IMG/VR virus record: IMGVR_UViG_2585427783_000005
DNA length: 32,447 nucleotides
DNA from: a virus
Taxonomy: Duplodnaviria; Heunggongvirae; Uroviricota; Caudoviricetes
Reading direction: 5' to 3' (one strand)
Part shown: piece by piece, positions 2,789-27,260 of the stretch
Layout: each line of letters starts with the position of its first letter
Position numbering within the stretch: position 1 is the first letter of the stretch
The notes under the pieces: generated by a model
Told to the model about the DNA's origin: nothing
Database searches by the model: none
The model's input: only the letters and a program-made list of their open reading frames with translations
Position numbers and translations under genes: made by a program

Positions 2789-3649
2789 TTACACGTGTTT
2801 TTCCAATGTGAAAACTACAGCCCCGGCAGGAGTAATGTCTGTAATGTTGCATTCAAACTCAGCAGACTTATTTGACAACCTGACTTTTCCACCGGGCAAG
2901 CGAATTACATCAAAAACATCAAGAGCGCCGTCGATATCAATTAACCAGCGACCATTACTTATATTCGAAGCAGAACAGTCGACAAGCCAAGAGGCAGCTA
3001 CACCGTCAACAAAAATCAATTCCCCTGAGTTAGAAGGAATCATTGAGGGGTCAGGATGCCACGTTCCTGCATCCTTAAGCTCACCAGATTCAAGACGAGA
3101 TTTTTTAATAGAAAAACCAGATGTGACATCTTCCCTGTTAGCTCGCATTTGCCCCTTGCCTGTTGCTAACCATTCCAGTGACGTATCGGTATCAAGAGCG
3201 CATGTAACAACAACATCACCAGGGAAAAAATCTCGCCTTACCCATGTGCTAATTGTGCCAGAGGAAATGCCGAGCAAATCACCGAGCTCCTTTTGCATGG
3301 TAAAGCCATACGCATCAAGAATCCTACGCAAAACGGTTTTACCACCATTCGTCATAATCTCGTCATAAAGCTCTTTGCCTTTTAACTTGCAACTGGCTCG
3401 CTCGTGATTTGCATTTGCAAGTTCTCCATTTACAAGCCAATTGATATCAGCTCCCGTGTCAAGACAACACCTAACTATGACATTGCCAGGTATTGCATCA
3501 CGCTGAACCCAGCCGCTAACGCTGTGTTTAGCGATACCTAGCAGGTCAGCCAAATCCTTTTGCATCTTGACCCCATAGGCTGACATTAAGCGTTCCAATA
3601 CGCCGTTCGTTGCACTAACACGCCACTGAACATCAAGCTCAGAACTCAT
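2789..3649 (-). CDS. cI: CI-type immunity repressor (186-like) with tandemly duplicated N-terminal HTH domain
   Basis: 286 aa. Two homologous modules (VLERLMSAYGVKMQKDLADLLGIAKHSVSGWVQRDAIPGNVIVRCCLDTGADINWLVNGE / VLRRILDAYGFTMQKELGDLLGISSGTISTWVRRDFFPGDVVVTCALDTDTSLEWLATGK), then a C-terminal domain resembling the 186 CI oligomerisation domain. Divergent from the early operon. Confidence 0.85.
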   Translation of the reverse strand: MSSELDVQWRVSATNGVLERLMSAYGVKMQKDLADLLGIAKHSVSGWVQRDAIPGNVIVRCCLDTGADINWLVNGELANANHERASCKLKGKELYDEIMTNGGKTVLRRILDAYGFTMQKELGDLLGISSGTISTWVRRDFFPGDVVVTCALDTDTSLEWLATGKGQMRANREDVTSGFSIKKSRLESGELKDAGTWHPDPSMIPSNSGELIFVDGVAASWLVDCSASNISNGRWLIDIDGALDVFDVIRLPGGKVRLSNKSAEFECNITDITPAGAVVFTLEKHV

Positions 3650-4691: not shown

Positions 4692-4892
4692 ATGCTGAAA
4701 AGTGAACCGTCATTCGCATCTCTGCTCGTTAAGCAAAGCCCCGGCATGCACTACGGCCACGGCTGGATCGCAGGTAAGGACGGCAAGCGCTGGCCCCCGA
4801 GCCACTCGCAGGCTGATTTACTGGCTGGCCTCTCTACTCAAAAGCGGGGGGGCTCATGGCTATCGAAGCTGTTTCCGCGACTGTTCCGCTAA
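4692..4892 (+). CDS. Hypothetical early protein (position of 186 fil/dhr region)
   Basis: ATG 4692 preceded by GAGG; 66 aa; overlaps next ORF in another frame. Confidence 0.4.
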   Translation: MLKSEPSFASLLVKQSPGMHYGHGWIAGKDGKRWPPSHSQADLLAGLSTQKRGGSWLSKLFPRLFR

Positions 4893-5194
4893 AAGCGGGT
4901 GAACGTCTGGCCGGTCTCAATCATGTTGCCGAATTGCGCGCGAGATATTGGGGCGATAGCTGGAAAGAGGTTGAACGTTTTGTCGATGATATGCGCGATA
5001 AACGTGACCCACAATTTGAAGAAAATAATCGGGCGCTGGCCGCTATTTTCTTTCTGGCAAAAATACCGGCGGCTCGTCATGAACTCGAATTAAGTGAGCT
5101 GACTACTGACGAGAAAAAGGCGCTTATTACAGCGATGAATCATTTTCGTGCAGTAGTGAGCTTATTTCCCAAACGGCTAACCATGCCGAATTAA
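4856..5194 (+). CDS. Hypothetical early protein
   Basis: 112 aa ORF with balanced composition; G-rich RBS region immediately upstream. Confidence 0.45.
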   Translation: MAIEAVSATVPLKAGERLAGLNHVAELRARYWGDSWKEVERFVDDMRDKRDPQFEENNRALAAIFFLAKIPAARHELELSELTTDEKKALITAMNHFRAVVSLFPKRLTMPN

Positions 5195-5261
5195 TCCAAA
5201 CAGAAATTTAATGGCGTAAACCCGCCGGGCATCTTATTGCCCGAAATCAGGAGAGTTAATT

Positions 5262-5489
5262 ATGCGTAATACCGAAATCCGTAGTTTTAACACTGATAGC
5301 GATGCGCTGGCCGTATTGCTGACCGATGCAAAAAAAGAAGAGCGTAAAGACCGCGCGCTCGCTGTTTCCATCCGCCTTGAGGCGCTGGCTATCCATATTA
5401 CCAGAGAGGGAATGAGCGGCACCGAAGCTGCCGAACTGCTGCGCCGTGAAGCAACCCGCTTTGAGAATGAATCACAGGAGCTGCACTAA
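5262..5489 (+). CDS. Hypothetical small early protein
   Basis: ATG 5262 with AGGAGAG RBS; 75 aa; stop overlaps next start (TAATG). Confidence 0.55.
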   Translation: MRNTEIRSFNTDSDALAVLLTDAKKEERKDRALAVSIRLEALAIHITREGMSGTEAAELLRREATRFENESQELH

Positions 5490-7934: not shown

Positions 7935-8008
7935 TTCATATCCATATCATGCACATACAGCAATCGCTCTATTCGTTTTTTTTCTTCCCATCTTTTGCCA
8001 ATACGTGC

Positions 8009-8028
8009 TACTGTATAAATATACAGTA
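8009..8028 (+). promoter_or_regulatory. LexA (SOS) box overlapping a promoter upstream of the small-ORF/DinI-like operon
   Basis: TACTGTATAAATATACAGTA: CTGT-N8-ACAG, near-perfect palindrome matching the E. coli LexA consensus; TTGCCA -35-like hexamer at 7995-8000. Confidence 0.8.
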
Positions 8029-8047
8029 ACCCTGTGGGAGGGATTTC

Positions 8048-8230
8048 ATGGTTGGCGAACATTTCAGCCGAACGCAGCAAAAGTGGGCTTGTGTGCAATT
8101 TATTGCCGAGGTATCTCTGATTGCAAACTGCAAGCCATCAGACTTAAAGCTCGCGCTCACTCTCATTGCAGACCTAGCAAACAGCGAGAATAACGAAACC
8201 GAAGATGATAATTTTTATAAGGCTGATTAG
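8048..8230 (+). CDS. Small hypothetical protein, first gene of the putative LexA-controlled operon
   Basis: ATG 8048 with GGGAGGG RBS; 60 aa; acidic C-terminus. Confidence 0.55.
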   Translation: MVGEHFSRTQQKWACVQFIAEVSLIANCKPSDLKLALTLIADLANSENNETEDDNFYKAD

Positions 8231-8233
8231 ATT

Positions 8234-8467
8234 ATGAGAATCAATATCACGTTGGATAAAGAGCAAAAAATTAGTCAGGCAACATTGGATGCACTTGAGG
8301 CTGAACTGTACCGCAATCTTCAACCTATTTACCCAAAGACTGCTATCCGAATTCGCAAGGGCTCCGCTAATGGCGTTGAACTAAGCGGTTTGAAACTGGA
8401 CGAAGATAAAAAACGAGTAATGGAAATCATGCAGCAGGTATGGGAGGACGATAGCTGGCTGCATTAA
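8234..8467 (+). CDS. DinI/Tum-family protein (candidate SOS-induced antirepressor or RecA modulator)
   Basis: 77 aa; MRINITLDKEQKISQATLDALEAELYRNLQPIYP ... EIMQQVWEDDSWLH resembles DinI in length and conserved N- and C-terminal segments; downstream of the LexA box. Confidence 0.75.
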   Translation: MRINITLDKEQKISQATLDALEAELYRNLQPIYPKTAIRIRKGSANGVELSGLKLDEDKKRVMEIMQQVWEDDSWLH

Positions 8468-8469
8468 CA

Positions 8470-8541
8470 AACGCCGCCGGTGCTGAAACTTGCTTTCAGT
8501 GCTGGCGGGGTTGAACAACTCGCACCGCGAGGCGCTAGTTC
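8470..8541 (+). repeat. Copy 1 of ~72-bp direct repeat with internal stem-loop, 3 nt after the DinI-like stop
   Basis: AACGCCGCCGGTGCTGAAACTTGCTTTCAGTGCTGGCGGGGTTGAACAAC...GCGAGGCG; ~85% identical to copy 2. Confidence 0.8.
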
Positions 8542-8662
8542 TTCCTCTCAAAGTTTCTCGATGTTTTATTGGTTACACACCAGTGATGAATGGGACGTTA
8601 CCTTAGCGGGTTTTATAGTGGCGCTGTGGCAGCGCTAAATAAAATTCATTGAGGGCGATAAT

Positions 8663-8872
8663 ATGCATCGACTACCGGGCGAAATTCCGCAGCACAAAAC
8701 TAAAAGCATCAAACTGATGGCCATCGTTCATCGTCTGCAGCAGATAATGGTCAATGAGAATTTGACACCCGCCGAGCTGGTCGGGTGTGCCGAAATAGTC
8801 AGGGATAATTACGGCAAGCTGGATAGCATCAGCAAGCCGACACATTACTCACCGCCACCACGTCGACCATAG
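8663..8872 (+). CDS. Hypothetical small protein between the two repeat copies
   Basis: ATG 8663 with GAGGG RBS 7 nt upstream; 69 aa. Confidence 0.55.
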   Translation: MHRLPGEIPQHKTKSIKLMAIVHRLQQIMVNENLTPAELVGCAEIVRDNYGKLDSISKPTHYSPPPRRP

Positions 8873-8874
8873 AT

Positions 8875-8946
8875 AACGCCGCCGGAGCTGAAACTCGCTT
8901 TCAGGTCTGGCGGGGTTGAACAACGAGCTACGCGAGGCGTTAGCCG
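8875..8946 (+). repeat. Copy 2 of ~72-bp direct repeat with internal stem-loop, 3 nt after the 69-aa ORF stop
   Basis: AACGCCGCCGGAGCTGAAACTCGCTTTCAGGTCTGGCGGGGTTGAACAAC...GCGAGGCG; stem preserved by compensatory changes relative to copy 1. Confidence 0.8.
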
Positions 8947-9005
8947 GTCATAGCGTCGCAAATACTTCAACCGTCTGCTGGTTAAATAATTCGAGGTTTT
9001 TGGAC

Positions 9006-9200
9006 ATGCAAAATCCCCTTTCATCGAAAAATGACCCGTTTGCCGATTGGGCAAAGAATCTGACTTTAATGGCTTTAAATAACGACCTGAGCTCTCGCGA
9101 GGTGGAAAGCTACACCGCAAAAATGGTCGGGCAGGCCGGTAAAGATGAGCTATCAGTCGTTATCAAACACCTGTTAAATCACATCAGAATGCGCAAATAA
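9006..9200 (+). CDS. Hypothetical small protein
   Basis: ATG 9006 with GAGG 9 nt upstream; 64 aa (track ORF 8916..9200 starts at a TTG inside repeat copy 2). Confidence 0.4.
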   Translation: MQNPLSSKNDPFADWAKNLTLMALNNDLSSREVESYTAKMVGQAGKDELSVVIKHLLNHIRMRK

Positions 9201-9216
9201 GAGGAACTATATAAAT

Positions 9217-9318
9217 ATGTTATCTCTCGTTTATGAAAATCCGTGGACGACGATTTTTCTGATGATTGTTGCCAGCATGTGCCTCAACAGTGTTATTGGC
9301 GCATTGCGCGGCCATTAA
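9217..9318 (+). CDS. Small hydrophobic peptide (33 aa, single predicted TM helix)
   Basis: ATG 9217 with AAGAGGAA RBS 10 nt upstream; MLSLVYENPWTTIFLMIVASMCLNSVIGALRGH; followed by a strong terminator. Below the ORF-track size cutoff. Confidence 0.45.
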   Translation: MLSLVYENPWTTIFLMIVASMCLNSVIGALRGH

Positions 9319-9336
9319 TCGCGACAAAACCAGACT

Positions 9337-9367
9337 AAAACCGGCACCCTGAATGCCGGTTTTTTTA
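9337..9367 (+). terminator. Rho-independent terminator ending the post-A accessory operon
   Basis: AAAACCGGCA-ccctgaa-TGCCGGTTTT followed by a T-run (TTTTTTTAT). Confidence 0.8.
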
Positions 9368-9526
9368 TGCCATTTTTCCGCGAATTTCCCGTTTTTTAGT
9401 CGTGCATGCATCAGGTGCATGGTTTTGCATGCGTCAGTCTTGCCCGTTCTGTCCGTGCGCCGCCAGAGCTAGCGCGGATCCAGAGTTGTCATGCAACTGC
9501 ATTAAAACCGCCCCATAAAGCGGGCA

Positions 9527-9545
9527 GGCGTGGCGGGGAAAGCAT
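9527..9545. other. cos site (cohesive-end sequence, P2/186 type)
   Basis: GGCGTGGCGGGGAAAGCAT in a ~400-bp GC-rich non-coding interval between the early/accessory region and portal gene Q, where cos lies in P2-family prophages; resembles the P2 19-nt cohesive end as I recall it. Confidence 0.65.
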
Positions 9546-9764
9546 TGCGCGCCAGCAGTGATGCGTAATAATAAAAATTATCCTCTGAGCGCGTCGTGAT
9601 GGCGCTGTCGTGGTCGCTGCTGGTTCGTTGGTGGTCGAGTGTGTTCGTGCGCGTGAGACGCATCTGATGCGTGATGGTGGTGTGCATGGAAAAGCCACCA
9701 GGAGCAGCGGCTTTACAGGAGTGGCAGGATTCAAACTGCTAATTATGTTTCTACTATGATTAAA

Positions 9765-10769
9765 CTAATTTACATGTATGTAGAGTTCACCGTCGCCAGA
9801 CCAATCGGGACACTCTAAAACAAGCCCAAACTGCTTGAATATTTCATCAATGATTATTGTTATCTCCCGAAAATCACCAAAACCTGTAATGTGCTGGTCA
9901 TTAAACTTCCCATAAAGATTCTGAAAAGCAATGCCTAATTCTGATAATTGATATCTTATCTTTGAGTTGGATAGTGTAAGGGATAGCTTTGGATCGTATT
10001 CTTTAATATTGATGTTTAGAGAATGGACATAACCCATCGCATAAGCATAAGAGTTGATGATTAGCCTGATACGTTTTTTTACTTCAAGATACATGTCATT
10101 CAGAGAAATATTACCGTACTTATAACCCCAGATGAGTTTTTCAATCTCGTCAGATACTTCATTTACAACAGTGTCAAGATTCTCTAAAAATAAATCGACA
10201 GTTTCTTGAGGGGCAGACCCCGAAGACATGTAATTAGCGAGATATTCAGACCATGCACGCGTGGCTGAGATAAGAAGCGCGCTACCATACTCGTTGACTG
10301 TAAAGTTTTGGGCTAAGCATGTTAGTAAGTTTTTTTCATGTACGTGCACTAATTCATGGTGAATGCGATGGATGACTGCGAGGTATCCTTCTTCTTTCAG
10401 TTTTAAGAAGCTACCATCATTGAAAAGCTCAACAAAAAAATCAATCGATAGCACAAGGGTATATTCTTCATATAGCCCATCATTGCCAATTTTTGTTACT
10501 AACTGCCCGACGGCTGCGCCCTGTTTGCTATTGGTAAATGAACTAGGGGATTTGTGTTGGTAAGAGGATGTTACCTTTTGAAGAGCTTCACTGAAGTTAT
10601 AGGAAACAATCACGCATTTTAATTTGGAGATATCAAGATTGAGATTCTTTGTTAAAGCTCGGATAGCTTCTAGTGTGAAATTACCGATATTATTTGCTTC
10701 TTGCTCAGTAGCGAAACCTTCGAGGGTTATTTTAAAATCAGTTTCCAAAATATTAATCTCCGCGCCCAT
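9765..10769 (-). CDS. AT-rich hypothetical protein with HExxH motif (possible metal-dependent hydrolase); accessory gene between cos and Q
   Basis: 334 aa ORF, ATG at 10767-10769 (revcomp); IHRIHHELVHVHE motif; strongly AT-rich relative to flanking phage genes; no recognisable P2 homolog. Confidence 0.6.
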   Translation of the reverse strand: MGAEINILETDFKITLEGFATEQEANNIGNFTLEAIRALTKNLNLDISKLKCVIVSYNFSEALQKVTSSYQHKSPSSFTNSKQGAAVGQLVTKIGNDGLYEEYTLVLSIDFFVELFNDGSFLKLKEEGYLAVIHRIHHELVHVHEKNLLTCLAQNFTVNEYGSALLISATRAWSEYLANYMSSGSAPQETVDLFLENLDTVVNEVSDEIEKLIWGYKYGNISLNDMYLEVKKRIRLIINSYAYAMGYVHSLNINIKEYDPKLSLTLSNSKIRYQLSELGIAFQNLYGKFNDQHITGFGDFREITIIIDEIFKQFGLVLECPDWSGDGELYIHVN

Positions 10770-10846
10770 TGTTTTGATATTCGATGCACTATAGCTTTCG
10801 CAGATTGCATCTTCAATAATGAGCGCAGAGATTGTGGCGGCCTAAG

Positions 10847-19718: not shown

Positions 19719-20594
19719 CTAGCCTCGTAAATATCGTTTAGTAAATTTCGTGTTTGGTCTGGATGATAGGATTTGTCTTTCTATTTCACTATCACAGTCT
19801 ATATAGTCTAGTGTATTAGCTTCTATAAGTTTGTTCACGTCAATATTTTTTGCATCGATTATGTTGGCATTTCTAAGGTTTGCATTGGTGTATTCCACTT
19901 TATCCAAATCACACTCTCTGAGTACGCAACTTTTCATTTCCGCATTGGAAAAATCCCCACCATATAAATAGCAGCCTTCAAAAATAACACCGTTTAACTT
20001 TGAATCCTGAGCTTTAATATTTTTTATTTTACACTTTATAAATTTTACGTTTTTCATTTTGCTCTTGCTAATATTTAATGCCTGGATTGTACATCCAGTG
20101 AAAGAACAGTCTCTTATGTTAGATTTTTCCATATTTAACCCAGATAGTTCTGAGGTTTTAAAGTGTAAGTATTTAATGGTAAAAAGGTCACCCAACTCCA
20201 TTCTGGGTATGTCTATATTGAAGACACCTTTATTGTTGAGCTGTCTTATTATTTTTATTTTTTGTATTTTCAAATCAACATTAACGTGCTTAGCTAAGTT
20301 TCCCAAATCCTCAAGAAGTTCATTAATCGTTTCTTTGTTTTGTCTTCTGTATTCAAAGTAATAAAGGATGACACCTAATACAAAAAAATCCAAAATGGAT
20401 GAATTTGCATTTATTAGGAACCCAGACAGGAATGAATCATTGTAATTACCATAGTGTATAGAGGCAAGTGTTACGCCAAATGCATATAAAATAAAAATAA
20501 TAAACACGTGCTTCATTTTGCATAAGGATTGTATTATTGGTTTTATGGCATCAATTTTGTTCATTGCTGCAGCAGCGAAAGATTTAAAAGTCAT
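19719..20594 (-). CDS. Membrane-anchored pentapeptide-repeat protein (moron between S and V, antisense to late genes)
   Basis: 291 aa; two N-terminal hydrophobic helices (VFIIFILYAFGVTLASI, ILDFFVLGVILYYF); C-terminal five-residue periodicity (SNIRD CSFTG CTIQA LNISK ... ANLRN ANIID); strongly AT-rich. Start codon uncertain (no clear RBS). Confidence 0.7.
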   Translation of the reverse strand: MTFKSFAAAAMNKIDAIKPIIQSLCKMKHVFIIFILYAFGVTLASIHYGNYNDSFLSGFLINANSSILDFFVLGVILYYFEYRRQNKETINELLEDLGNLAKHVNVDLKIQKIKIIRQLNNKGVFNIDIPRMELGDLFTIKYLHFKTSELSGLNMEKSNIRDCSFTGCTIQALNISKSKMKNVKFIKCKIKNIKAQDSKLNGVIFEGCYLYGGDFSNAEMKSCVLRECDLDKVEYTNANLRNANIIDAKNIDVNKLIEANTLDYIDCDSEIERQILSSRPNTKFTKRYLRG

Positions 20595-21733: not shown

Positions 21734-22642
21734 ATGGCAACCGTTGACCTGAGTCAGTTACCCGTTCCCGATGTGGTTGAGGAACTGGACTATGAAACTA
21801 TCCTTGCGGAACGCATTGCGACGCTGATTTCGCTCTATCCCGAAGACCAGCAGGAGGCCATTGCCCGGACGCTCACACTTGAGTCAGAGCCGATTGTTAA
21901 GCTGCTGCAGGAAAACGCCTACCGTGAAGTTATCTGGCGTCAGCGGGTGAACGAAGCCGCGCAGGCGGTGACGCTGGCCTACTCCGCCGGTAACGACCTC
22001 GACGTCGTAGCCGGGAACAATAATACCGAACGCCTGACCATCACCCCGGCGGATGATACCACCATCCCGCCGACACCTGCCGTTATGGAATCTGATACCG
22101 ACCTGCGACTGCGCACGCAACAGGCGTTTGAGGGATTGAGCGTGGCGGGTCCGGTCGGTGCATATGAGTATCACGGCCGCAGCGCCGACGGGCGGGTCGC
22201 TGACGTTTCGGTCGCCAGCCCGTCGCCAGCCTGCGTGACGATTACCGTGCTATCGCGTGAGGGGGACGGCACTGCCAGCCCTGAGCTACTGGCGATTGTT
22301 GATAAAGCGCTGAACGCCGAAGATGTGCGCCCGGTAGCTGACCGGGTGACCGTCCAGTCAGCCGAGATTGTGCCGTACCAGATTGACGCGACGATCTACG
22401 TTTACCCCGGCCCCGAATCTGAACCCATCAGGCAGGCGTCAGAGCAGAAGTTGCAGAGCTACATCAGCGCGCAGCACCGCCTCGGGCGTGATATCCGTCT
22501 GTCAGCCATTTATGCGGCGCTGCATGTTGAGGGGGTGCAGCGTGTCGAGCTGACATCACCGCAGGCCGACATAGTGCTGAGTAAGTCGCAGGCGTCGAAC
22601 TGTACCGAGTACCAGATAACTATCGGGGGCTCGGATGAATGA
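21734..22642 (+). CDS. J: Baseplate protein J
   Basis: 302 aa, same as P2 gpJ. Confidence 0.9.
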   Translation: MATVDLSQLPVPDVVEELDYETILAERIATLISLYPEDQQEAIARTLTLESEPIVKLLQENAYREVIWRQRVNEAAQAVTLAYSAGNDLDVVAGNNNTERLTITPADDTTIPPTPAVMESDTDLRLRTQQAFEGLSVAGPVGAYEYHGRSADGRVADVSVASPSPACVTITVLSREGDGTASPELLAIVDKALNAEDVRPVADRVTVQSAEIVPYQIDATIYVYPGPESEPIRQASEQKLQSYISAQHRLGRDIRLSAIYAALHVEGVQRVELTSPQADIVLSKSQASNCTEYQITIGGSDE

Positions 22643-23243
22643 CCGGCTATTACCCGTTGGCTCGTCGCCGCTGGAGGTTGCCGCCGCTGCCGCGCTCTCT
22701 GAGATTCAGCGTGTGCCGGTACCGCTGCGCACTCTGTGGAACTGGCGCACCTGCCCGGTAAAACTGCTGCCGTATCTGGCGTGGGCGCTGTCGGTCGACA
22801 GGTGGGATGAGAAATGGCCGGAGGCGACAAAGCGTAGCGTCTGCGCGTCCTCGTTTTTCGTCCATCAGCACAAAGGCACCATTAGCGCATTGCGTCGGGT
22901 GGTTGAGCCGCTCGGCTTTCTGATTGAAGTGCGCGAGTGGTGGCAGCTCAACGAGGAGCCAGGCACATTCCGCCTCGTTGTCGGCGTGCTCGATAGCGGC
23001 ATTACTGACGAAATGTATCAGGAGCTTGAGCGCCTGATTGAAGACGCCAAACCGGCAAGTCGCCACCTGACCGGGCTGGCTATCAGTCTGAGCTCGACCG
23101 GCGAACTGTATGTCGGCGCGGGATGCTATCACGGCGACGCGCTGACTGTTTACCCCTACACCCCCGAGGAGATTGTCGTCGGCGGTGAATATTACCCGGC
23201 CTCGGCCATCCATTTGATTGATAACCTGAGAGTGAACGCATGA
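22635..23243 (+). CDS. I: Baseplate/tail protein I
   Basis: 202 aa; overlaps the J stop and H start as in P2. Confidence 0.85.
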   Translation: MNDRLLPVGSSPLEVAAAAALSEIQRVPVPLRTLWNWRTCPVKLLPYLAWALSVDRWDEKWPEATKRSVCASSFFVHQHKGTISALRRVVEPLGFLIEVREWWQLNEEPGTFRLVVGVLDSGITDEMYQELERLIEDAKPASRHLTGLAISLSSTGELYVGAGCYHGDALTVYPYTPEEIVVGGEYYPASAIHLIDNLRVNA

Positions 23244-24157
23244 CCGCAAAATATTTTGCCATTCTGACCAATCAGGGCGCGGCGCGGCTGGCGAACGCGG
23301 CGGCACTCGGTACCAAACTCAACCTGACGCAGATGGCCGTCGGTGATGCGAATGGTACGTTGCCGACCCCTGACCCGGCGCAGACGAAGCTCATTAACCA
23401 GAAACGCATCGCGCCGCTGAACCTGCTGACCGTTGACCCGGCCAATACCAGTCAGATTATCGCGGAACAGATTATTCCCGAGAATGAAGGTGGTTTCTGG
23501 ATCCGCGAGATTGGTCTCTATGACGATGATGGTATTCTGATTGCCGTGGCGAACTGTCCGGAGACCTACAAGCCACAACTGCAGGAGGGAAGCGGTCGCA
23601 CGCAGACCATTCGCATGATTCTGATTGTGTCGAGCACATCGGCAATCACCCTGAAAATCGACCCGGCAGTCGTGCTGGCAACGCGCCAGTATGTCGACGA
23701 CAAGATTATCGAGGTGAAAGGATATGCTGATGACCTGATGAAAAAACATGTTGAGGCCGCCAATCCACACAAGCAGTACCCGTTAATCGCTAATGCTCTG
23801 AAAGAAATGGTTGACGCGGGACTGGCCGGCGACGTTCTTAAAAACCTTGGTTTAAGAGCAAGCGGGCAGTACACCGATAATTTGTTATTTACAGGTCCTG
23901 ATGGTCTTAAGATTCAGGTGTTTCGCCGGACGCTCGCAAATTTGACTACTGTCGGTGTAGTAAATTCTGTGCCAGTGACTTTCCCTGTCCCGTTCCCTGT
24001 TAATTGCTGGGGCGTTTTTTCTACCAAATTAACATGGGTTCAGATAACTAACTCATGCGAGTGGGTAAGCAATACAGGATTTACCGCTCAGGTCATGATG
24101 AATATTGCTGTAAATACAAACACCTCAGACGCTATGTTTTTAGCTATAGGATATTAA
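23240..24157 (+). CDS. H: Tail fibre protein (short form; conserved N-terminus plus invertible C-terminal domain)
   Basis: 305 aa; N-terminus (AVGDANGTLP..., IPENEGGFWIREIGLYDDDGILIAVANCPETYKP) resembles the P2 gpH N-terminus; C-terminal part lies inside the predicted invertible segment. Confidence 0.85.
   Translation: MTAKYFAILTNQGAARLANAAALGTKLNLTQMAVGDANGTLPTPDPAQTKLINQKRIAPLNLLTVDPANTSQIIAEQIIPENEGGFWIREIGLYDDDGILIAVANCPETYKPQLQEGSGRTQTIRMILIVSSTSAITLKIDPAVVLATRQYVDDKIIEVKGYADDLMKKHVEAANPHKQYPLIANALKEMVDAGLAGDVLKNLGLRASGQYTDNLLFTGPDGLKIQVFRRTLANLTTVGVVNSVPVTFPVPFPVNCWGVFSTKLTWVQITNSCEWVSNTGFTAQVMMNIAVNTNTSDAMFLAIGY
23835..23858. repeat. Left recombination (crossover) site of invertible tail-fibre segment (hix/gix-like)
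   Basis: TTCTTAAAAACCTTGGTTTAAGAG resembles hixL as recalled; inverted relative to the right site. Confidence 0.6.
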
Positions 24158-24158
24158 T

Positions 24159-24599
24159 ATGAATCGTTTTGTGTTCAGTCCATCTGAGTCCCGTTTTTAT
24201 GCCATCGAGTGGCAGGCTGATTATGTTGATAATAATTGTTGGCCACATGATGCCATTAACGTTAGTGACAGCATTTATTATGAGTTTTCCGGCACTCCCC
24301 CTACAGGTAAGCAACTTATAACTTTAAATAACATGCCAGCATGGGGTGATATTCCTCCACCTACACGAGAAGAATTAATTGTCGCTGCTGATGTGGAGAA
24401 GCAAAAAAGAATAGATTTAGCCAATGATTACATGAACGGTAAGCAATGGCCTGGTAAAGCAGCTATTGGTCGTCTGAAAGGTGAGGAACTGGCACAATAT
24501 AATTTGTGGCTGGATTATCTGGACGCACTGGAGCTGGTCGATACCGCCAGTGCGCCAGATATTGAATGGCCTACGCCTCCGGCAGTTCAGGCCAGATGA
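24159..24599 (+). CDS. G: Tail fibre assembly chaperone (expressed orientation)
   Basis: 146 aa; C-terminus ...SAPDIEWPTPP typical of the tail-fibre-assembly family. Confidence 0.85.
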   Translation: MNRFVFSPSESRFYAIEWQADYVDNNCWPHDAINVSDSIYYEFSGTPPTGKQLITLNNMPAWGDIPPPTREELIVAADVEKQKRIDLANDYMNGKQWPGKAAIGRLKGEELAQYNLWLDYLDALELVDTASAPDIEWPTPPAVQAR

Positions 24600-25173
24600 C
24601 ATCCGGCGCGGTGCTGGTATCTGTTGCCGTCACCGCGTCAATGTAATCCAGCACAGTGTTAAGGCTGGTTGTTTCTGCCTGCGTCAGTTTACGTCCGGCC
24701 TGCAATTTCAGCTGAATCAGACTGATTGAAGCCATTGCAGTATCAATCAGTGACTGGCGCTGTGCTTCTGCTGCATCTACTGCGGCGCTATGCTGTGCTT
24801 CGGTATCCGTCACCCATTTCTCACCATCCCATTTATCGTATGGCGTTAACGGGGCGATAGTGGTTGTATTATCAGGGTAATCACCCGGAGCTGTGATTTC
24901 TTTTGATTCTCCTGTTTCGGTGCTAAAGACGATTTCACCGCGATGGTCTGGCACATATTCCCATGAGTTAAAATCTACAGATCGGCAGATTGCATAACCA
25001 GCTTTGTATGTGCCAGGGGCATCTAAACAGGAATATGCAGGGATACCGACACCAACGGCAAGATATTCAGTTGATGTGGAAATATATTCCCGTGTTTCGC
25101 CATCATAGTTATAGACGGTAATATCCCCCGCCTTTGTAGCAATAAACTCGCTATTTAATACAGCGTTATCCAT
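24571..25173 (-). CDS. Alternative tail fibre assembly chaperone (inverted orientation)
   Basis: 200 aa on minus strand; C-terminus ...TAPDVIWPELPEA, paralogous to G; 3' ends of the two chaperone genes overlap convergently. Confidence 0.8.
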   Translation of the reverse strand: MDNAVLNSEFIATKAGDITVYNYDGETREYISTSTEYLAVGVGIPAYSCLDAPGTYKAGYAICRSVDFNSWEYVPDHRGEIVFSTETGESKEITAPGDYPDNTTTIAPLTPYDKWDGEKWVTDTEAQHSAAVDAAEAQRQSLIDTAMASISLIQLKLQAGRKLTQAETTSLNTVLDYIDAVTATDTSTAPDVIWPELPEA

Positions 25174-25670
25174 TATGCAGCCCTCACGATATAGTTAAAT
25201 GCAATATTCCGTGGACGGGTTTCATTTATCCCATATGCTGTTGTTCTCTGATTCCCGACAAAATATCCATTTGGATTAGAAGATACAGAATAATCATCAA
25301 AATCAAGTGGGCTATCAGCACCCGGCGTCAGGCTTGCAATATATCCTCTTCCCATAACTTCTGATGCTGGTATTTCTTTTGTACGATAATCACTAACTCT
25401 GAAGAGCTGCCCTTGGTGGGTGTGTGATTCCACTCCTCCATTCTGAAGACTTAGCAAGGCACGTACAGCATCAATACCACGCCCGTCATCCCAGCCACGA
25501 ATAAACTCACCACGTAAATCAGGCAATTTATTTGTCGGATAAGCCTTTGCCAGTTCCGGATATTCTTCAGCAGAAAAAGCGGCACCGTTGCATTTCAGCC
25601 AGCCTGTTGGCGGAGTGGCTGAAGGCCACGGAACAGGCACCCCAACCGGTAATGCAGAGCCTTCTCCCAA
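25173..25670 (-). CDS. Alternative tail-fibre C-terminal (receptor-binding) segment; promoterless, used only after inversion
   Basis: Minus-strand ORF without ATG start that begins at the right crossover site; LPDLRGEFIRGW and NETRPRNIAFNYIV tail-collar-like motifs. Confidence 0.7.
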   Translation of the reverse strand: MGEGSALPVGVPVPWPSATPPTGWLKCNGAAFSAEEYPELAKAYPTNKLPDLRGEFIRGWDDGRGIDAVRALLSLQNGGVESHTHQGQLFRVSDYRTKEIPASEVMGRGYIASLTPGADSPLDFDDYSVSSNPNGYFVGNQRTTAYGINETRPRNIAFNYIVRAA

Positions 25671-25688
25671 ACCAACCTTTTAGAAAAC
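25665..25688. repeat. Right recombination (crossover) site of invertible segment
   Basis: Reverse complement TTTTCTAAAAGGTTGGTTTGGGAG shares the AAAA-NN-TTGGTTT core with the left site. Confidence 0.55.
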
Positions 25689-25741
25689 GCAGATATTCCG
25701 TTCAGCTGGCATGATCCCGACTTTTTACCGGGTTATTTCTC

Positions 25742-25983
25742 ATGTTTATCGGTTATGTACGTGTATCAACAAATGACCAGAACACCGCATTACAGCGAAA
25801 TGAACTGGAGTGCGCAGGATGTGAGCTGATTTTCGAAGATAAAATCAGCGGCAAAACATCAGACTGGCCGGGCTAAAGAGGTTACTCAGAACCTTGTCAG
25901 AGGGCGATACGCTTGTGGTCTGGAAACTGGATCGCCTCGGGTATCTCAACGCTATACAAAAAATTTCCCGCATCCGTTGCTGA
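25742..25983 (+). pseudogene. Serine DNA invertase (Gin/Hin/Cin/Pin family) remnant: frameshifted and 3'-truncated
   Basis: MFIGYVRVSTNDQNTALQRNELECAGCELIFEDKISGK... stops after 44 codons (TAA 25874-25876); a -1 frame continues LKRLLRTLSEGDTLVVWKLDRLG then ends at 25983; the C-terminal ~110 aa including the HTH are absent. Confidence 0.8.
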
Positions 25984-26081
25984 TGTCTCAATGTGTCAGA
26001 CATCGCCCAACACTGACAAATAGCCCCTCAACAGACCAGCCAGGACAATAACACTCGCCCACTAACCACGGAGTTAACCGG

Positions 26082-27260
26082 ATGAGTGATTTTCACCACG
26101 GCGTGCAGGTGCTTGAGATTAACGACGGCACCCGCGTCATTTCCACTGTTGCAACCGCAATCGTCGGCATGGTCTGTACAGCCAGCGATGCGGATGCGGC
26201 AACCTTTCCCCTCAACGAGCCGGTACTGATTACCAATGTGCAAAGCGCCATTGCGAAAGCCGGTAAAAAAGGCACGCTGGCCGCGTCCCTGCAGGCCATC
26301 GCCGACCAGTCAAAACCTGTCACAGTTGTCGTGCGTGTTGCCGAAGGTACCGGAGAAGACGCCGAAGCGCAGACCATTTCCAATATCATCGGCGGCACGG
26401 ATGAGAACGGTAAATATACCGGCATCAAGGCGCTGTTGACTGCCGAAGCAGTCACCGGCGTTAAGCCGCGCATTCTCGGCGTGCCGGGTCTCGATACCAA
26501 AGAGGTCGCAGTCGCACTTGCTTCGGTCTGTATCAGCCTGCGCGCCTTTGGCTATATCAGCGCATGGGGTTGTAAAACCATTTCCGAGGCGATGGCCTAT
26601 CGCGAGAATTTCAGCCAGCGCGAGCTGATGGTCATCTGGCCTGATTTCCTTGCATGGGATACCACCACAAACGCCACCGCACCGGCATACGCAACTGCGC
26701 GCGCACTCGGCCTGCGTGCCTATATCGACCAGACCGTCGGCTGGCACAAAACCCTGTCTAACGTCGGCGTGCAGGGTGTTACCGGCATCAGTGCGTCAGT
26801 GTTTTGGGATTTGCAGGCATCCGGCACCGATGCTGATCTGCTCAACGAGGCCGGGGTCACGACACTGGTGCGTAAGGATGGCTTCCGCTTTTGGGGTAAC
26901 CGCACCTGCTCTGATGACCCGCTTTTCCTGTTTGAGAACTACACCCGCACCGCGCAGGTGCTGGCCGACACGATGGCCGAGGCGCACATGTGGGCGGTCG
27001 ATAAGCCCATCACCGCATCACTTATCCGTGACATTGTCGACGGCATTAACGCCAAATTCCGCGAGCTGAAATCAAACGGCTACATCGTGGACGGTGAATG
27101 CTGGTTCGACGAGGAATCGAACGATAAGGAAACCCTCAAGGCCGGGAAACTGTATATCGACTACGACTATACACCGGTTCCACCACTGGAAAGCCTGACC
27201 CTGCGCCAGCGTATCACCGATAAATATCTGGTGAATCTGTCCGAATCGGTCAACAGCTAA
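26082..27260 (+). CDS. FI: Tail sheath protein
   Basis: 392 aa; size and position match P2 gpFI. Confidence 0.9.
   Translation: MSDFHHGVQVLEINDGTRVISTVATAIVGMVCTASDADAATFPLNEPVLITNVQSAIAKAGKKGTLAASLQAIADQSKPVTVVVRVAEGTGEDAEAQTISNIIGGTDENGKYTGIKALLTAEAVTGVKPRILGVPGLDTKEVAVALASVCISLRAFGYISAWGCKTISEAMAYRENFSQRELMVIWPDFLAWDTTTNATAPAYATARALGLRAYIDQTVGWHKTLSNVGVQGVTGISASVFWDLQASGTDADLLNEAGVTTLVRKDGFRFWGNRTCSDDPLFLFENYTRTAQVLADTMAEAHMWAVDKPITASLIRDIVDGINAKFRELKSNGYIVDGECWFDEESNDKETLKAGKLYIDYDYTPVPPLESLTLRQRITDKYLVNLSESVNS

What the first reader, a model, noticed from the sequence alone, without database searches (positions are those of the whole stretch)
23835..25688. Gin/Hin-type invertible tail-fibre host-range cassette inside a P2-family prophage
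The C-terminal part of tail fibre H and its chaperone G are followed on the opposite strand by a second chaperone and a promoterless alternative fibre C-terminus. The two ends carry inverted hix/gix-like sites sharing the AAAA-NN-TTGGTTT core, and both reading frames would fuse in-frame to the constant part of H across the core (…DVLKNLG|LRASGQ versus …G|LGEGSALP). This is a Mu G-segment-like switch, sitting where P2 carries the Z/fun locus.
Basis: partly seen in the sequence, partly recalled or inferred. Interest (0 to 1): 0.6.

Follow-up and report, generated by a model that had tools for sequence, protein, structure and literature searches.

The report
Invertible tail-fibre switch, invertase gene dead
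This is an ordinary Mu/e14-type flip-flop DNA segment that swaps the tip of a P2-family prophage tail fibre in E. coli, with one twist: its own invertase gene is a dead stub, yet the segment still flips, so an enzyme from another prophage must be driving it.

Summary
Window 23847-25675 is a 1.83-kb invertible segment bounded by two 26-bp Din-type crossover sites (23835-23860 and 25662-25687) with matching TT cores. It holds two fibre C-termini, each with its own chaperone. Both fuse in frame to the constant part of P2-type gene H, giving a 305-aa or a 369-aa fibre.

The segment nevertheless inverts:
- One public draft-assembly contig, 100% identical to the window, joins the far end of the segment to the H constant region and encodes exactly the predicted 369-aa fibre.
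- Two pairs of sister E. coli isolates carrying the same prophage lineage and the same stub hold their segments in opposite orientations. The breakpoints fall at the cores.

One of these genomes lacks e14 but has an intact pinR, so inversion in trans is the likely mechanism.

The segment is 99.5% identical to an e14 P segment, and that similarity ends at the crossover sites. P2-family phages with intact invertases at this position are already known, for example pro483. This is a new member of a known kind.

The parts
23240..23846 (+). Constant N-terminal part of tail-fibre gene H (aa 1-202), up to the crossover core.
   Evidence: Pfam PF12571 covers aa 1-150. It is identical at 605 of 607 bases to CH423/CH425.
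23835..23860 (+). Left 26-bp crossover site TTCTTAAAAACC TT GGTTTAAGAGCA, with the core TT at 23847-23848.
   Evidence: The outer half-site is identical to CH423/CH425. The inner half-site is identical to e14 of Z1323PEC0011. Both of those elements are seen in both orientations.
23847..25675 (.). Invertible segment of 1829 bp, GC 0.46.
   Evidence: It is 99.45% identical to the e14 P segment of Z1323PEC0013, and that alignment ends exactly at 23847 and 25675. Contig L087 shows it joined to the H flank by its other end.
23849..24157 (+). Variable fibre C-terminus that is currently expressed (gp53-like C domain). Together with the constant part it makes the 305-aa H.
   Evidence: Pfam PF21882, E 7e-7.
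24159..24599 (+). Tail-fibre assembly chaperone for the expressed tip (146 aa).
   Evidence: Pfam Caudo_TAP, E 1e-26.
24571..25173 (-). Silent tail-fibre assembly chaperone (200 aa, TfaE-like). Its 3' end overlaps the other chaperone gene by 29 bp.
   Evidence: Pfam Caudo_TAP, E 2e-32. It is annotated tfaE in e14 relatives.
25173..25673 (-). Silent, start-less alternative fibre C-terminus (Collar domain). After inversion it gives the 369-aa H.
   Evidence: Pfam PF07484, E 5e-16. The identical 369-aa product is encoded on contig L087.
25662..25687 (-). Right 26-bp crossover site. On the minus strand it reads TTTTCTAAAAGG TT GGTTTGGGAGAA, with the core at 25674-25675.
   Evidence: It contains the published e14 repeat exactly.
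25742..25941 (+). Remnant of a Pin/Gin-type serine invertase gene. Codons 1-44 are followed by a frameshift, then codons 43-67 in another frame. Everything after ...KLDRLG is deleted. It probably still carries the cis enhancer, at about 25760-25830.
   Evidence: Translations. Pfam Resolvase N-terminal domain matches profile positions 2-76 of 145 only. Alignment to pinE. tblastn. The first 126 nt are 72-83% identical to intact invertase genes.
25990..26081 (+). Region homologous to the P2 pF late-promoter region, immediately upstream of sheath gene FI (26082-27260).
   Evidence: Alignment to P2 and pro483 and the P2 annotation.

Best explanation
**What it is.** A site-specific DNA inversion switch of the Gin/Pin/Cin/Hin ('Din') type sits inside the tail-fibre gene of a P2-family prophage of E. 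coli. A serine invertase would pair the two inverted 26-bp sites, cut at the central TT dinucleotides and rotate the 1829-bp segment.

**The two states.**
- In the present orientation the H constant part (aa 1-202) is fused to a gp53-like tip and is co-transcribed with a 146-aa chaperone.
- In the other orientation H is fused to a Collar-domain tip, giving 369 aa, with a 200-aa TfaE-like chaperone.
- Phage made from the two states would carry different receptor-binding tips. This consequence is inferred.

**Where the enzyme comes from.** The prophage's own invertase gene is a 67-codon frameshifted stub. The enzyme must therefore come in trans from another resident element, such as PinR, PinQ or PinE of cryptic prophages, or another phage or plasmid. 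The stub covers the part of the gene where the Fis-bound enhancer lies in intact systems, so it may survive as the cis enhancer.

**Origin of the segment.** The segment is an e14 P-segment allele. Its similarity to e14 stops at the crossover sites, which suggests that whole segments are exchanged between unrelated prophages at these sites.

**Shown:** anatomy, sites, frames, the dead invertase, and both orientations in nature.
**Inferred:** trans supply of the enzyme, the enhancer role of the stub, the host-range consequence, and cassette exchange.
For: **Anatomy and domains.**

**Sites and cores.**

**In-frame alternative product.**

**Dead invertase.**
- Searches show the stub.
- tblastn with PinE finds nothing else in the window.

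**Inversion of this very element.**
- Contig LRLG01000047.1 (L087) equals window 22226-25675 at 100% identity, followed by the reverse complement of window 22226-23853 at 100%. The two parts overlap only in AAACCAA.
- It encodes the predicted 369-aa H with 0 differences.
- Contig L088 ends exactly at 25675.

**Inversion in the same lineage with the same stub.**
- CH423 versus CH425, and EC12 versus EC15, have 100% identical flanks and an inverted inner segment. The breakpoints fall at the cores.
- The window's right flank, including the stub, is 99.84% identical and gap-free to CH423.

**A source of invertase in trans.**
- CH423 has no e14, because icd and iraM are contiguous.
- It has an intact 196-aa pinR in a Rac-like prophage.
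- PinQ of prophage Qin inverts the e14 P segment located in a different prophage (PMC12529663).

**Enhancer position.** The Hin enhancer is 65 bp long and lies about 100 bp from a hix site (PMC3798978). Here that falls within 25742-25840, upstream of the frameshift.

**Relation to e14.**
- The segment is 99.45% identical to e14 from 23847 to 25675.
- The same e14 allele is seen in both orientations in sister isolates Z1323PEC0011 and Z1323PEC0013.

**Similar modules in P2-family phages.**
- pro483 has an intact 197-aa invertase at this position.
- 11 of 77 P2-like loci in other species carry a full-length invertase there.
- Inversions were detected experimentally in P2-like prophages of EPEC (PMC4272514).
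Against: - No read-level data were available, so the mixed population behind contig L087 is inferred from contig structure.
- Two copies of the prophage fixed in opposite states in one genome would give the same contig. That would still require a past inversion.
- The trans-acting enzyme is not identified.
- By the NAR paper's figure, PinR and PinQ are only about 38% identical to PinE. Their activity on these particular sites is untested.
- Fis binding to the stub is not shown. The two conserved G-N13-C 15-mers I found are 49 bp apart, not the 48 bp I recall for hin.
- The flipped right-hand junction of this exact cassette was not found in IMG/VR or in metagenome contigs.
- A host-range difference between the two tips is assumed by analogy with Mu and P1.
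Confidence: 0.85

Rival explanations
1. The cassette is a frozen relic. After the invertase was lost, the cassette became locked, and the orientation differences between genomes are old, inherited states rather than ongoing switching.
For: - The invertase is truncated in every member of this lineage examined: window, 613R3, VG888, CH423/CH425 and EC12/EC15.
- The window's exact H::gp53-like junction was found in no complete E. coli genome.
- That exact cassette was found in its flipped state only on contig L087.
Against: - The sister isolates have 100% identical flanks and identical inner segments but opposite orientation. The flips therefore happened after the truncation and very recently.
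- Contig L087 shows both junctions in one assembly that is 100% identical to the window.
Confidence: 0.08
2. The inversions arise from RecA-dependent or illegitimate recombination between the short inverted repeats, not from a serine invertase.
For: No functional invertase is encoded next to the segment.
Against: - In the window the two sites share only 7 contiguous identical bases (TTGGTTT), far too few for homologous recombination.
- The breakpoints fall precisely at the 2-bp core of canonical 26-bp Din sites in three independent cases.
- The same sites are used in e14, where PinE and PinQ dependence has been shown experimentally (PMC12529663).
Confidence: 0.04
3. The switch now serves the host rather than the phage. 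One orientation would make a fibre-derived protein that alters the cell surface or blocks other phages, as reported for the e14 chimera StfE2 against T2.
For: - The segment is 99.5% identical to an e14 P segment.
- The e14 inversion was reported to block T2 adsorption (PMC12529663).
Against: - In e14 K-12 the protective chimera starts from an ATG in the outer right flank. In the window that short frame is closed by a TAA inside the outer half-site (read from the sequence, and the ORF list), so no StfE2-type product can form.
- The prophage otherwise looks complete: integrase, CI repressor, replication gene A and a full late gene set.
- A virion-named relative with the same stub exists, vB_EcoM-613R3.
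Confidence: 0.1

Closest known systems
The invertible P segment of E. coli cryptic prophage e14, with invertase PinE (Plasterk and van de Putte 1985; PMC12529663).
   Same: - The segment content is the same: a gp53-like tip with its chaperone, facing TfaE with a Collar-type tip.
- DNA identity is 99.45% over 1829 bp to the e14 of Z1323PEC0013.
- The TT core and the inner half-sites are the same.
- The NLGL junction motif is the same.
- Both orientations are seen in sister isolates.
   Different: - The constant fibre part and the carrier differ: here a P2-type H in a complete P2-family myovirus prophage next to yfiB, there a defective element in icd.
- The outer half-sites differ.
- The invertase is reduced to a 67-codon stub.
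- The outer-flank start codon that makes the e14 StfE/StfE2 products is closed by a stop here.
The Mu G segment with Gin, and the P1 C segment with Cin.
   Same: - The architecture matches: constant part, variable part and chaperone facing a second chaperone and variable part, with the invertase just outside.
- The 26-bp sites are 17-18 of 26 identical to gix.
- The crossover lies in NLGL codons.
- The established function is host-range switching.
   Different: - Mu and P1 encode a working invertase.
- The Mu segment is about 3 kb, against 1.83 kb here.
- The core is TC in Mu and TT here.
P2-family phages and prophages that have an invertase between the fibre genes and FI: Peduovirus pro483, the P2-like prophages of EPEC E2348/69, and (from my own knowledge) Fels-2 with Fin and SopE-phi.
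   Same: - Same genome position and module order.
- Inversion has been detected experimentally in the EPEC P2-like prophages (PMC4272514).
- 11 of 77 P2-like loci in other Enterobacterales species carry a full-length invertase there.
   Different: Those elements carry a full-length invertase of about 180-197 aa. The lineage of this window carries only the stub; its remnant-FI junction is found in 35 of 5426 complete E. coli genomes.
Salmonella Hin/hix flagellar switch.
   Same: Same recombinase family and site design, and a Fis-bound enhancer inside the 5' end of the invertase gene (PMC3798978). Trans action by a prophage invertase (Fin) on hix is documented in Kutsukake 2006, which I saw only as an entry in the reference list of PMC4272514.
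   Different: Hin flips a promoter. Here the flip exchanges the 3' end of a coding sequence.

Membership tests
Din-type (Gin/Pin/Cin/Hin) invertible DNA segment | Two 26-bp imperfect-dyad crossover sites in inverted orientation, with identical 2-bp cores. | tested here: met
   - The sites are at 23835-23860 and 25662-25687, with TT cores on opposite strands.
- They match e14 sites at 19-23 of 26 positions and Mu gix at 17-18 of 26.
- The published e14 repeat is present exactly.
Din-type (Gin/Pin/Cin/Hin) invertible DNA segment | An adjacent gene for a functional serine invertase of about 185-195 aa, with the catalytic domain, helix E and a C-terminal HTH domain. | tested here: not met
   - Only codons 1-67 remain, and they contain a frameshift.
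- Pfam Resolvase matches profile positions 2-76 of 145.
- Homology to pinE ends after DRLG, and the pF promoter region follows.
- No other Pin-like sequence is present in the window.
Din-type (Gin/Pin/Cin/Hin) invertible DNA segment | A Fis-bound recombinational enhancer in cis, normally in the 5' part of the invertase gene. | tested here: inconclusive
   - The homologous stretch (25742-25867) is retained and is 72-83% identical to intact genes.
- It has two conserved G-N13-C 15-mers 49 bp apart.
- Fis binding cannot be tested with these tools.
Din-type (Gin/Pin/Cin/Hin) invertible DNA segment | The segment is actually found in both orientations, with breakpoints at the cores. | tested here: met
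   - Contig L087 for the identical element.
- CH423/CH425 and EC12/EC15 for the same lineage.
Din-type (Gin/Pin/Cin/Hin) invertible DNA segment | Inversion depends on a serine invertase and Fis. | not testable with these tools
   This needs genetics or biochemistry. An intact pinR is present in CH423, and trans action is published for e14.
Tail-fibre host-range cassette (Mu S/U - S'/U' type) | Two alternative fibre C-termini, each with its own assembly chaperone, on opposite strands, both in frame with one constant N-terminus. | tested here: met
Tail-fibre host-range cassette (Mu S/U - S'/U' type) | The two orientations give phage with different host ranges. | not testable with these tools
   This is inferred from Mu, P1 and carotovoricin precedents.
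P2-family (Peduoviridae) prophage | P2 late-gene order V W J I H G ... FI FII E T U D, with P2-type replication gene A and an integrase. | tested here: met
   - Pfam hits: Tail_P2_I, Phage_sheath, Phage_GPA, integrase.
- The ORF order is and the P2 annotation.
- The window is 97-98% identical to the Peduoviridae phage vB_EcoM-613R3 on both sides of the cassette.

The most novel reading that the evidence does not exclude
The invertase stub is not mere decay. It would be kept because it carries the cis enhancer. This prophage lineage would then have handed control of its host-range switch to invertases of other resident prophages, such as PinR, PinQ or PinE, so that the tip a phage particle carries depends on which other mobile elements share the cell. 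In the same reading, whole invertible segments move between unrelated prophages (e14 and P2-family) by recombination at the crossover sites, a natural form of recombinase-mediated cassette exchange.
Probability: 0.35. Interest if true: 0.5.

Novelty: new member of a known kind. Interest (0 to 1): 0.3.

Why it matters
Invertible tail-fibre segments are textbook biology, so the element itself adds little.

What is mildly useful is the evidence that the switch keeps working after its own invertase gene has been lost. Annotation pipelines and inverton surveys that require a neighbouring recombinase would call such loci inactive.

It also gives a clean natural example of one prophage's host range depending on another prophage's enzyme. 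In addition, an entire invertible segment appears to have been transplanted between unrelated prophages, with boundaries at the crossover sites.

For phage engineering and typing, the tip expressed by this lineage cannot be read from a single assembly.

Tried and rejected
- **Source genome.** I looked for the window's source among species-representative genomes. There was no exact match, and the best H constant region was 89-96% identical in other genera. The origin was settled instead from the host flank, which matches all 5426 E. coli genomes, and from exact-protein look-up.
- **Flipped right-hand junction.** I searched for GCTTGCTCTTAAACCAACCTTTTAGAAAA in IMG/VR and in metagenome contigs and found none. 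The present left junction occurs in only one IMG/VR contig, so this absence means little.
- **The window's own H::gp53-like junction.** I searched complete E. coli genomes and found none with 80% coverage or more.
- **PinE as the trans-acting enzyme in CH423.** Rejected, because that genome has no e14.
- **Fis sites.** I tried to define them from a G-N13-C rule with 48-bp spacing. No pair at 48 bp is conserved; the conserved pair is 49 bp apart. I leave the enhancer as an inference.
- **Review paper.** My guess at the PMC id of R. C. Johnson's review on DNA invertases was not held.
- **Statistics on the inverted repeat alone.** These are weak. Repeats of 24 nt at 71% occur by chance in the same region, so I rest the case on site identity and breakpoints instead.
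Full report
**1. What is in the sequence**

The window is a P2-family prophage of E. coli.
- It holds an integrase (1379-2419, -), a CI-type repressor, replication gene A, the capsid genes, and then V W J I H on the plus strand, followed by FI FII E T U D.
- The first 1.4 kb include host DNA found in all 5426 complete E. coli genomes. The attachment point, next to yfiB, is the same as in strains CH423 and CH425.

The tail-fibre region is laid out as follows.
- Gene H (23240-24157, 305 aa) has the Phage_tail_fib N-terminal domain and a gp53-like C-terminus.
- A Caudo_TAP chaperone follows at 24159-24599.
- On the opposite strand lie a second Caudo_TAP chaperone (24571-25173) and a Collar-domain fibre C-terminus (25173-25670).
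- That last frame has no start of its own. It is closed just upstream by a TAA inside the outer half-site.

**2. The sites**

- The longest inverted repeat in the region joins 23833-23863 to 25659-25689.
- Read as 26-mers the sites are TTCTTAAAAACC TT GGTTTAAGAGCA (23835-23860) and, on the minus strand, TTTTCTAAAAGG TT GGTTTGGGAGAA (25687-25662).
- The central dinucleotide is TT in both, so the cores match in inverted orientation.
- The right site contains the published e14 repeat TTGGTTTGGGAGAAGG exactly, with none expected by chance (PMC12529663).
- The window sites are 19-23 of 26 identical to the e14 K-12 sites and 17-18 of 26 identical to Mu gix, which I read from the Mu genome as TTATCCAAAACC TC GGTTTACAGGAA.
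- In the window, in e14 StfP and in Mu S, the crossover lies in codons for the same motif, NLGL.
- Inverting 23847-25675 in silico gives an in-frame H of 369 aa.

P2 has fun(Z) between G and FI, and this interval is where the second half of the cassette sits.

**3.

Sixty-seven bases beyond the centre of the right site, an ORF starts MFIGYVRVSTNDQNTALQRNELECAGCELIFEDKISGK... (25742). This is the N-terminus of a Pin/Gin-type serine invertase.
- It runs 44 codons to a stop. The frame then shifts for ...LKRLLRTLSEGDTLVVWKLDRLG, and similarity to pinE ends there, at about codon 67.
- The remaining 140 bp up to FI are homologous to the P2 pF promoter region.
- Helix E and the DNA-binding domain are therefore gone.
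- tblastn with PinE finds nothing else in the window.
- The same truncation is present in phage vB_EcoM-613R3 and in prophages of VG888, CH423/CH425 and EC12/EC15.
- The remnant-FI junction occurs in 35 of 5426 complete E. coli genomes.
- The window shares a further 5-bp deletion with CH423. Its right flank, including the stub, is 99.84% identical and gap-free to that strain.

**4. Does it still invert? Yes.**

(a) *The identical element.* An exact-protein look-up of the 305-aa H found four public assemblies.
- Contig LRLG01000047.1 (5071 bp) equals window 22226-25675 at 100% identity and then continues as the reverse complement of window 22226-23853, also at 100%.
- The two parts overlap only in AAACCAA, which includes the core.
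- This contig joins the far end of the segment to the H constant region and encodes my predicted 369-aa protein with no difference.
- Seven shared bases cannot create such a join in a k-mer assembly, so reads with the flipped junction must exist alongside reads with the present one.
- A second contig, from another assembly, stops exactly at 25675.

(b) *Sister isolates CH423 and CH425.* They come from the same hospital, and their chromosomes differ by 5 bp in length.
- They carry the same prophage lineage. The H constant region matches the window at 605 of 607 bases.
- Their flanks are 100% identical to each other.
- Their 1866-bp segment is identical but inverted, with the break at the cores.

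(c) *Sister isolates EC12 and EC15.* They show the same pattern.

(d) *Across genomes.* Eight complete genomes have this H constant region (at least 96% identity) fused to the Collar-type tip. Most others with the stub have that tip silent.

**5. Who does the cutting?**

This part is inference.
- The stub cannot make an enzyme.
- CH423 has no e14, because icd and iraM are adjacent.
- It does have an intact 196-aa pinR in a Rac-like prophage.
- PinQ of prophage Qin has been shown to invert the e14 P segment, which lies in a different prophage, and PinE does the same (PMC12529663).
- Cross-complementation among Gin, Cin, Pin and Hin is classical knowledge (my own recollection).
- These enzymes need an enhancer in cis. 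In hin it is a 65-bp element about 100 bp from a hix site, inside the 5' end of the gene (PMC3798978).
- Here that position is 25742-25840, upstream of the frameshift, and it is 72-83% identical to intact genes. The stub may therefore persist as the enhancer. I could not test Fis binding.

**6. Where the segment came from**

- The inner 1829 bp are 99.45% identical to the P segment of an e14 element (Z1323PEC0013), and that alignment runs from 23847 to 25675, core to core. The best hits among E. coli genomes reach 99.7%.
- That e14 allele is itself seen in both orientations in sister isolates, next to an intact pinE.
- By contrast, similarity to the CH423 prophage is 97% up to 23853 and 99.8% from 25661 on, but only partial and 89-93% inside the segment.
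- The window thus looks like the CH423-type prophage with its segment replaced by an e14 segment, with boundaries at the crossover sites.
- The fibre constant parts of e14 and P2 are unrelated, so homologous recombination has little to work with. Exchange at the sites is the simpler reading. It remains an inference.

**7. Comparison with what is known**

- The closest relative by sequence is the e14 P segment. By architecture it is the Mu G and P1 C segments.
- Within the P2 family the module is already known:
  - Peduovirus pro483 has a 197-aa invertase between the alternative fibre tip and FI.
  - 11 of 77 P2-like loci from other Enterobacterales species have a full-length Pin-like gene there.
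  - Inversions in P2-like prophages of EPEC were detected by sequencing (PMC4272514).
- A defining feature of a self-contained Din system, the adjacent working invertase, was tested and is not met. I therefore describe the element as an orphan Din-type invertible segment, not a complete system.
- Unlike e14 K-12, the short frame that enters the segment from the right flank is closed by a stop. The T2-blocking StfE2-type chimera reported for e14 cannot form here.

**8. Verdict**

- It is a new member of a well-known kind.
- The points of modest interest are the dead invertase with continuing inversion, the likely dependence on another prophage's enzyme, and the segment swap bounded by the crossover sites.
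- Interest is 0.3.

Noticed in passing
window 19719-20594 (-): A 291-aa pentapeptide-repeat protein gene with GC 0.32 is inserted between P2 genes S and V, which have GC 0.58-0.59. It looks like an AT-rich moron. There is no PADLOC hit.
   Followed up: partly
window 7935-10846: The interval between replication gene A and portal gene Q, which is the tin/old position in P2, has GC 0.44. It holds a 334-aa ORF (9765-10769, -) with GC 0.38 and no Pfam or PADLOC match. It could be an unknown cargo or defence gene.
   Followed up: partly
window 24571-24599: The two convergent tail-fibre chaperone genes overlap by 29 bp at their 3' ends. The same arrangement is seen for tfaP/tfaE in e14 K-12.
   Followed up: no
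L031 (Trabulsiella odontotermitis) 4775-5317 and 9969-10511: Two full-length Pin-like invertase genes lie one on each side of a P2-like H gene.
   Followed up: no
L017, L023, L029: Three contigs labelled Vagococcus sp. WN89Y, a Gram-positive genus, carry enterobacterial P2-like tail genes and, in L017, a Pin-like invertase. The likely cause is contamination or a mislabelled assembly.
   Followed up: no
window 2789-3649 (-): The prophage repressor is a 286-aa CI-type protein (Phage_CI_repr with two matched stretches, plus Phage_CI_C). This points to a 186-like rather than a P2-like immunity region.
   Followed up: no
window 25868 region: The window and CH423/CH425 share a 5-bp deletion in the invertase stub that relatives VG888 and phage 613R3 lack. 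The stub is therefore still decaying downstream of the putative enhancer.
   Followed up: partly
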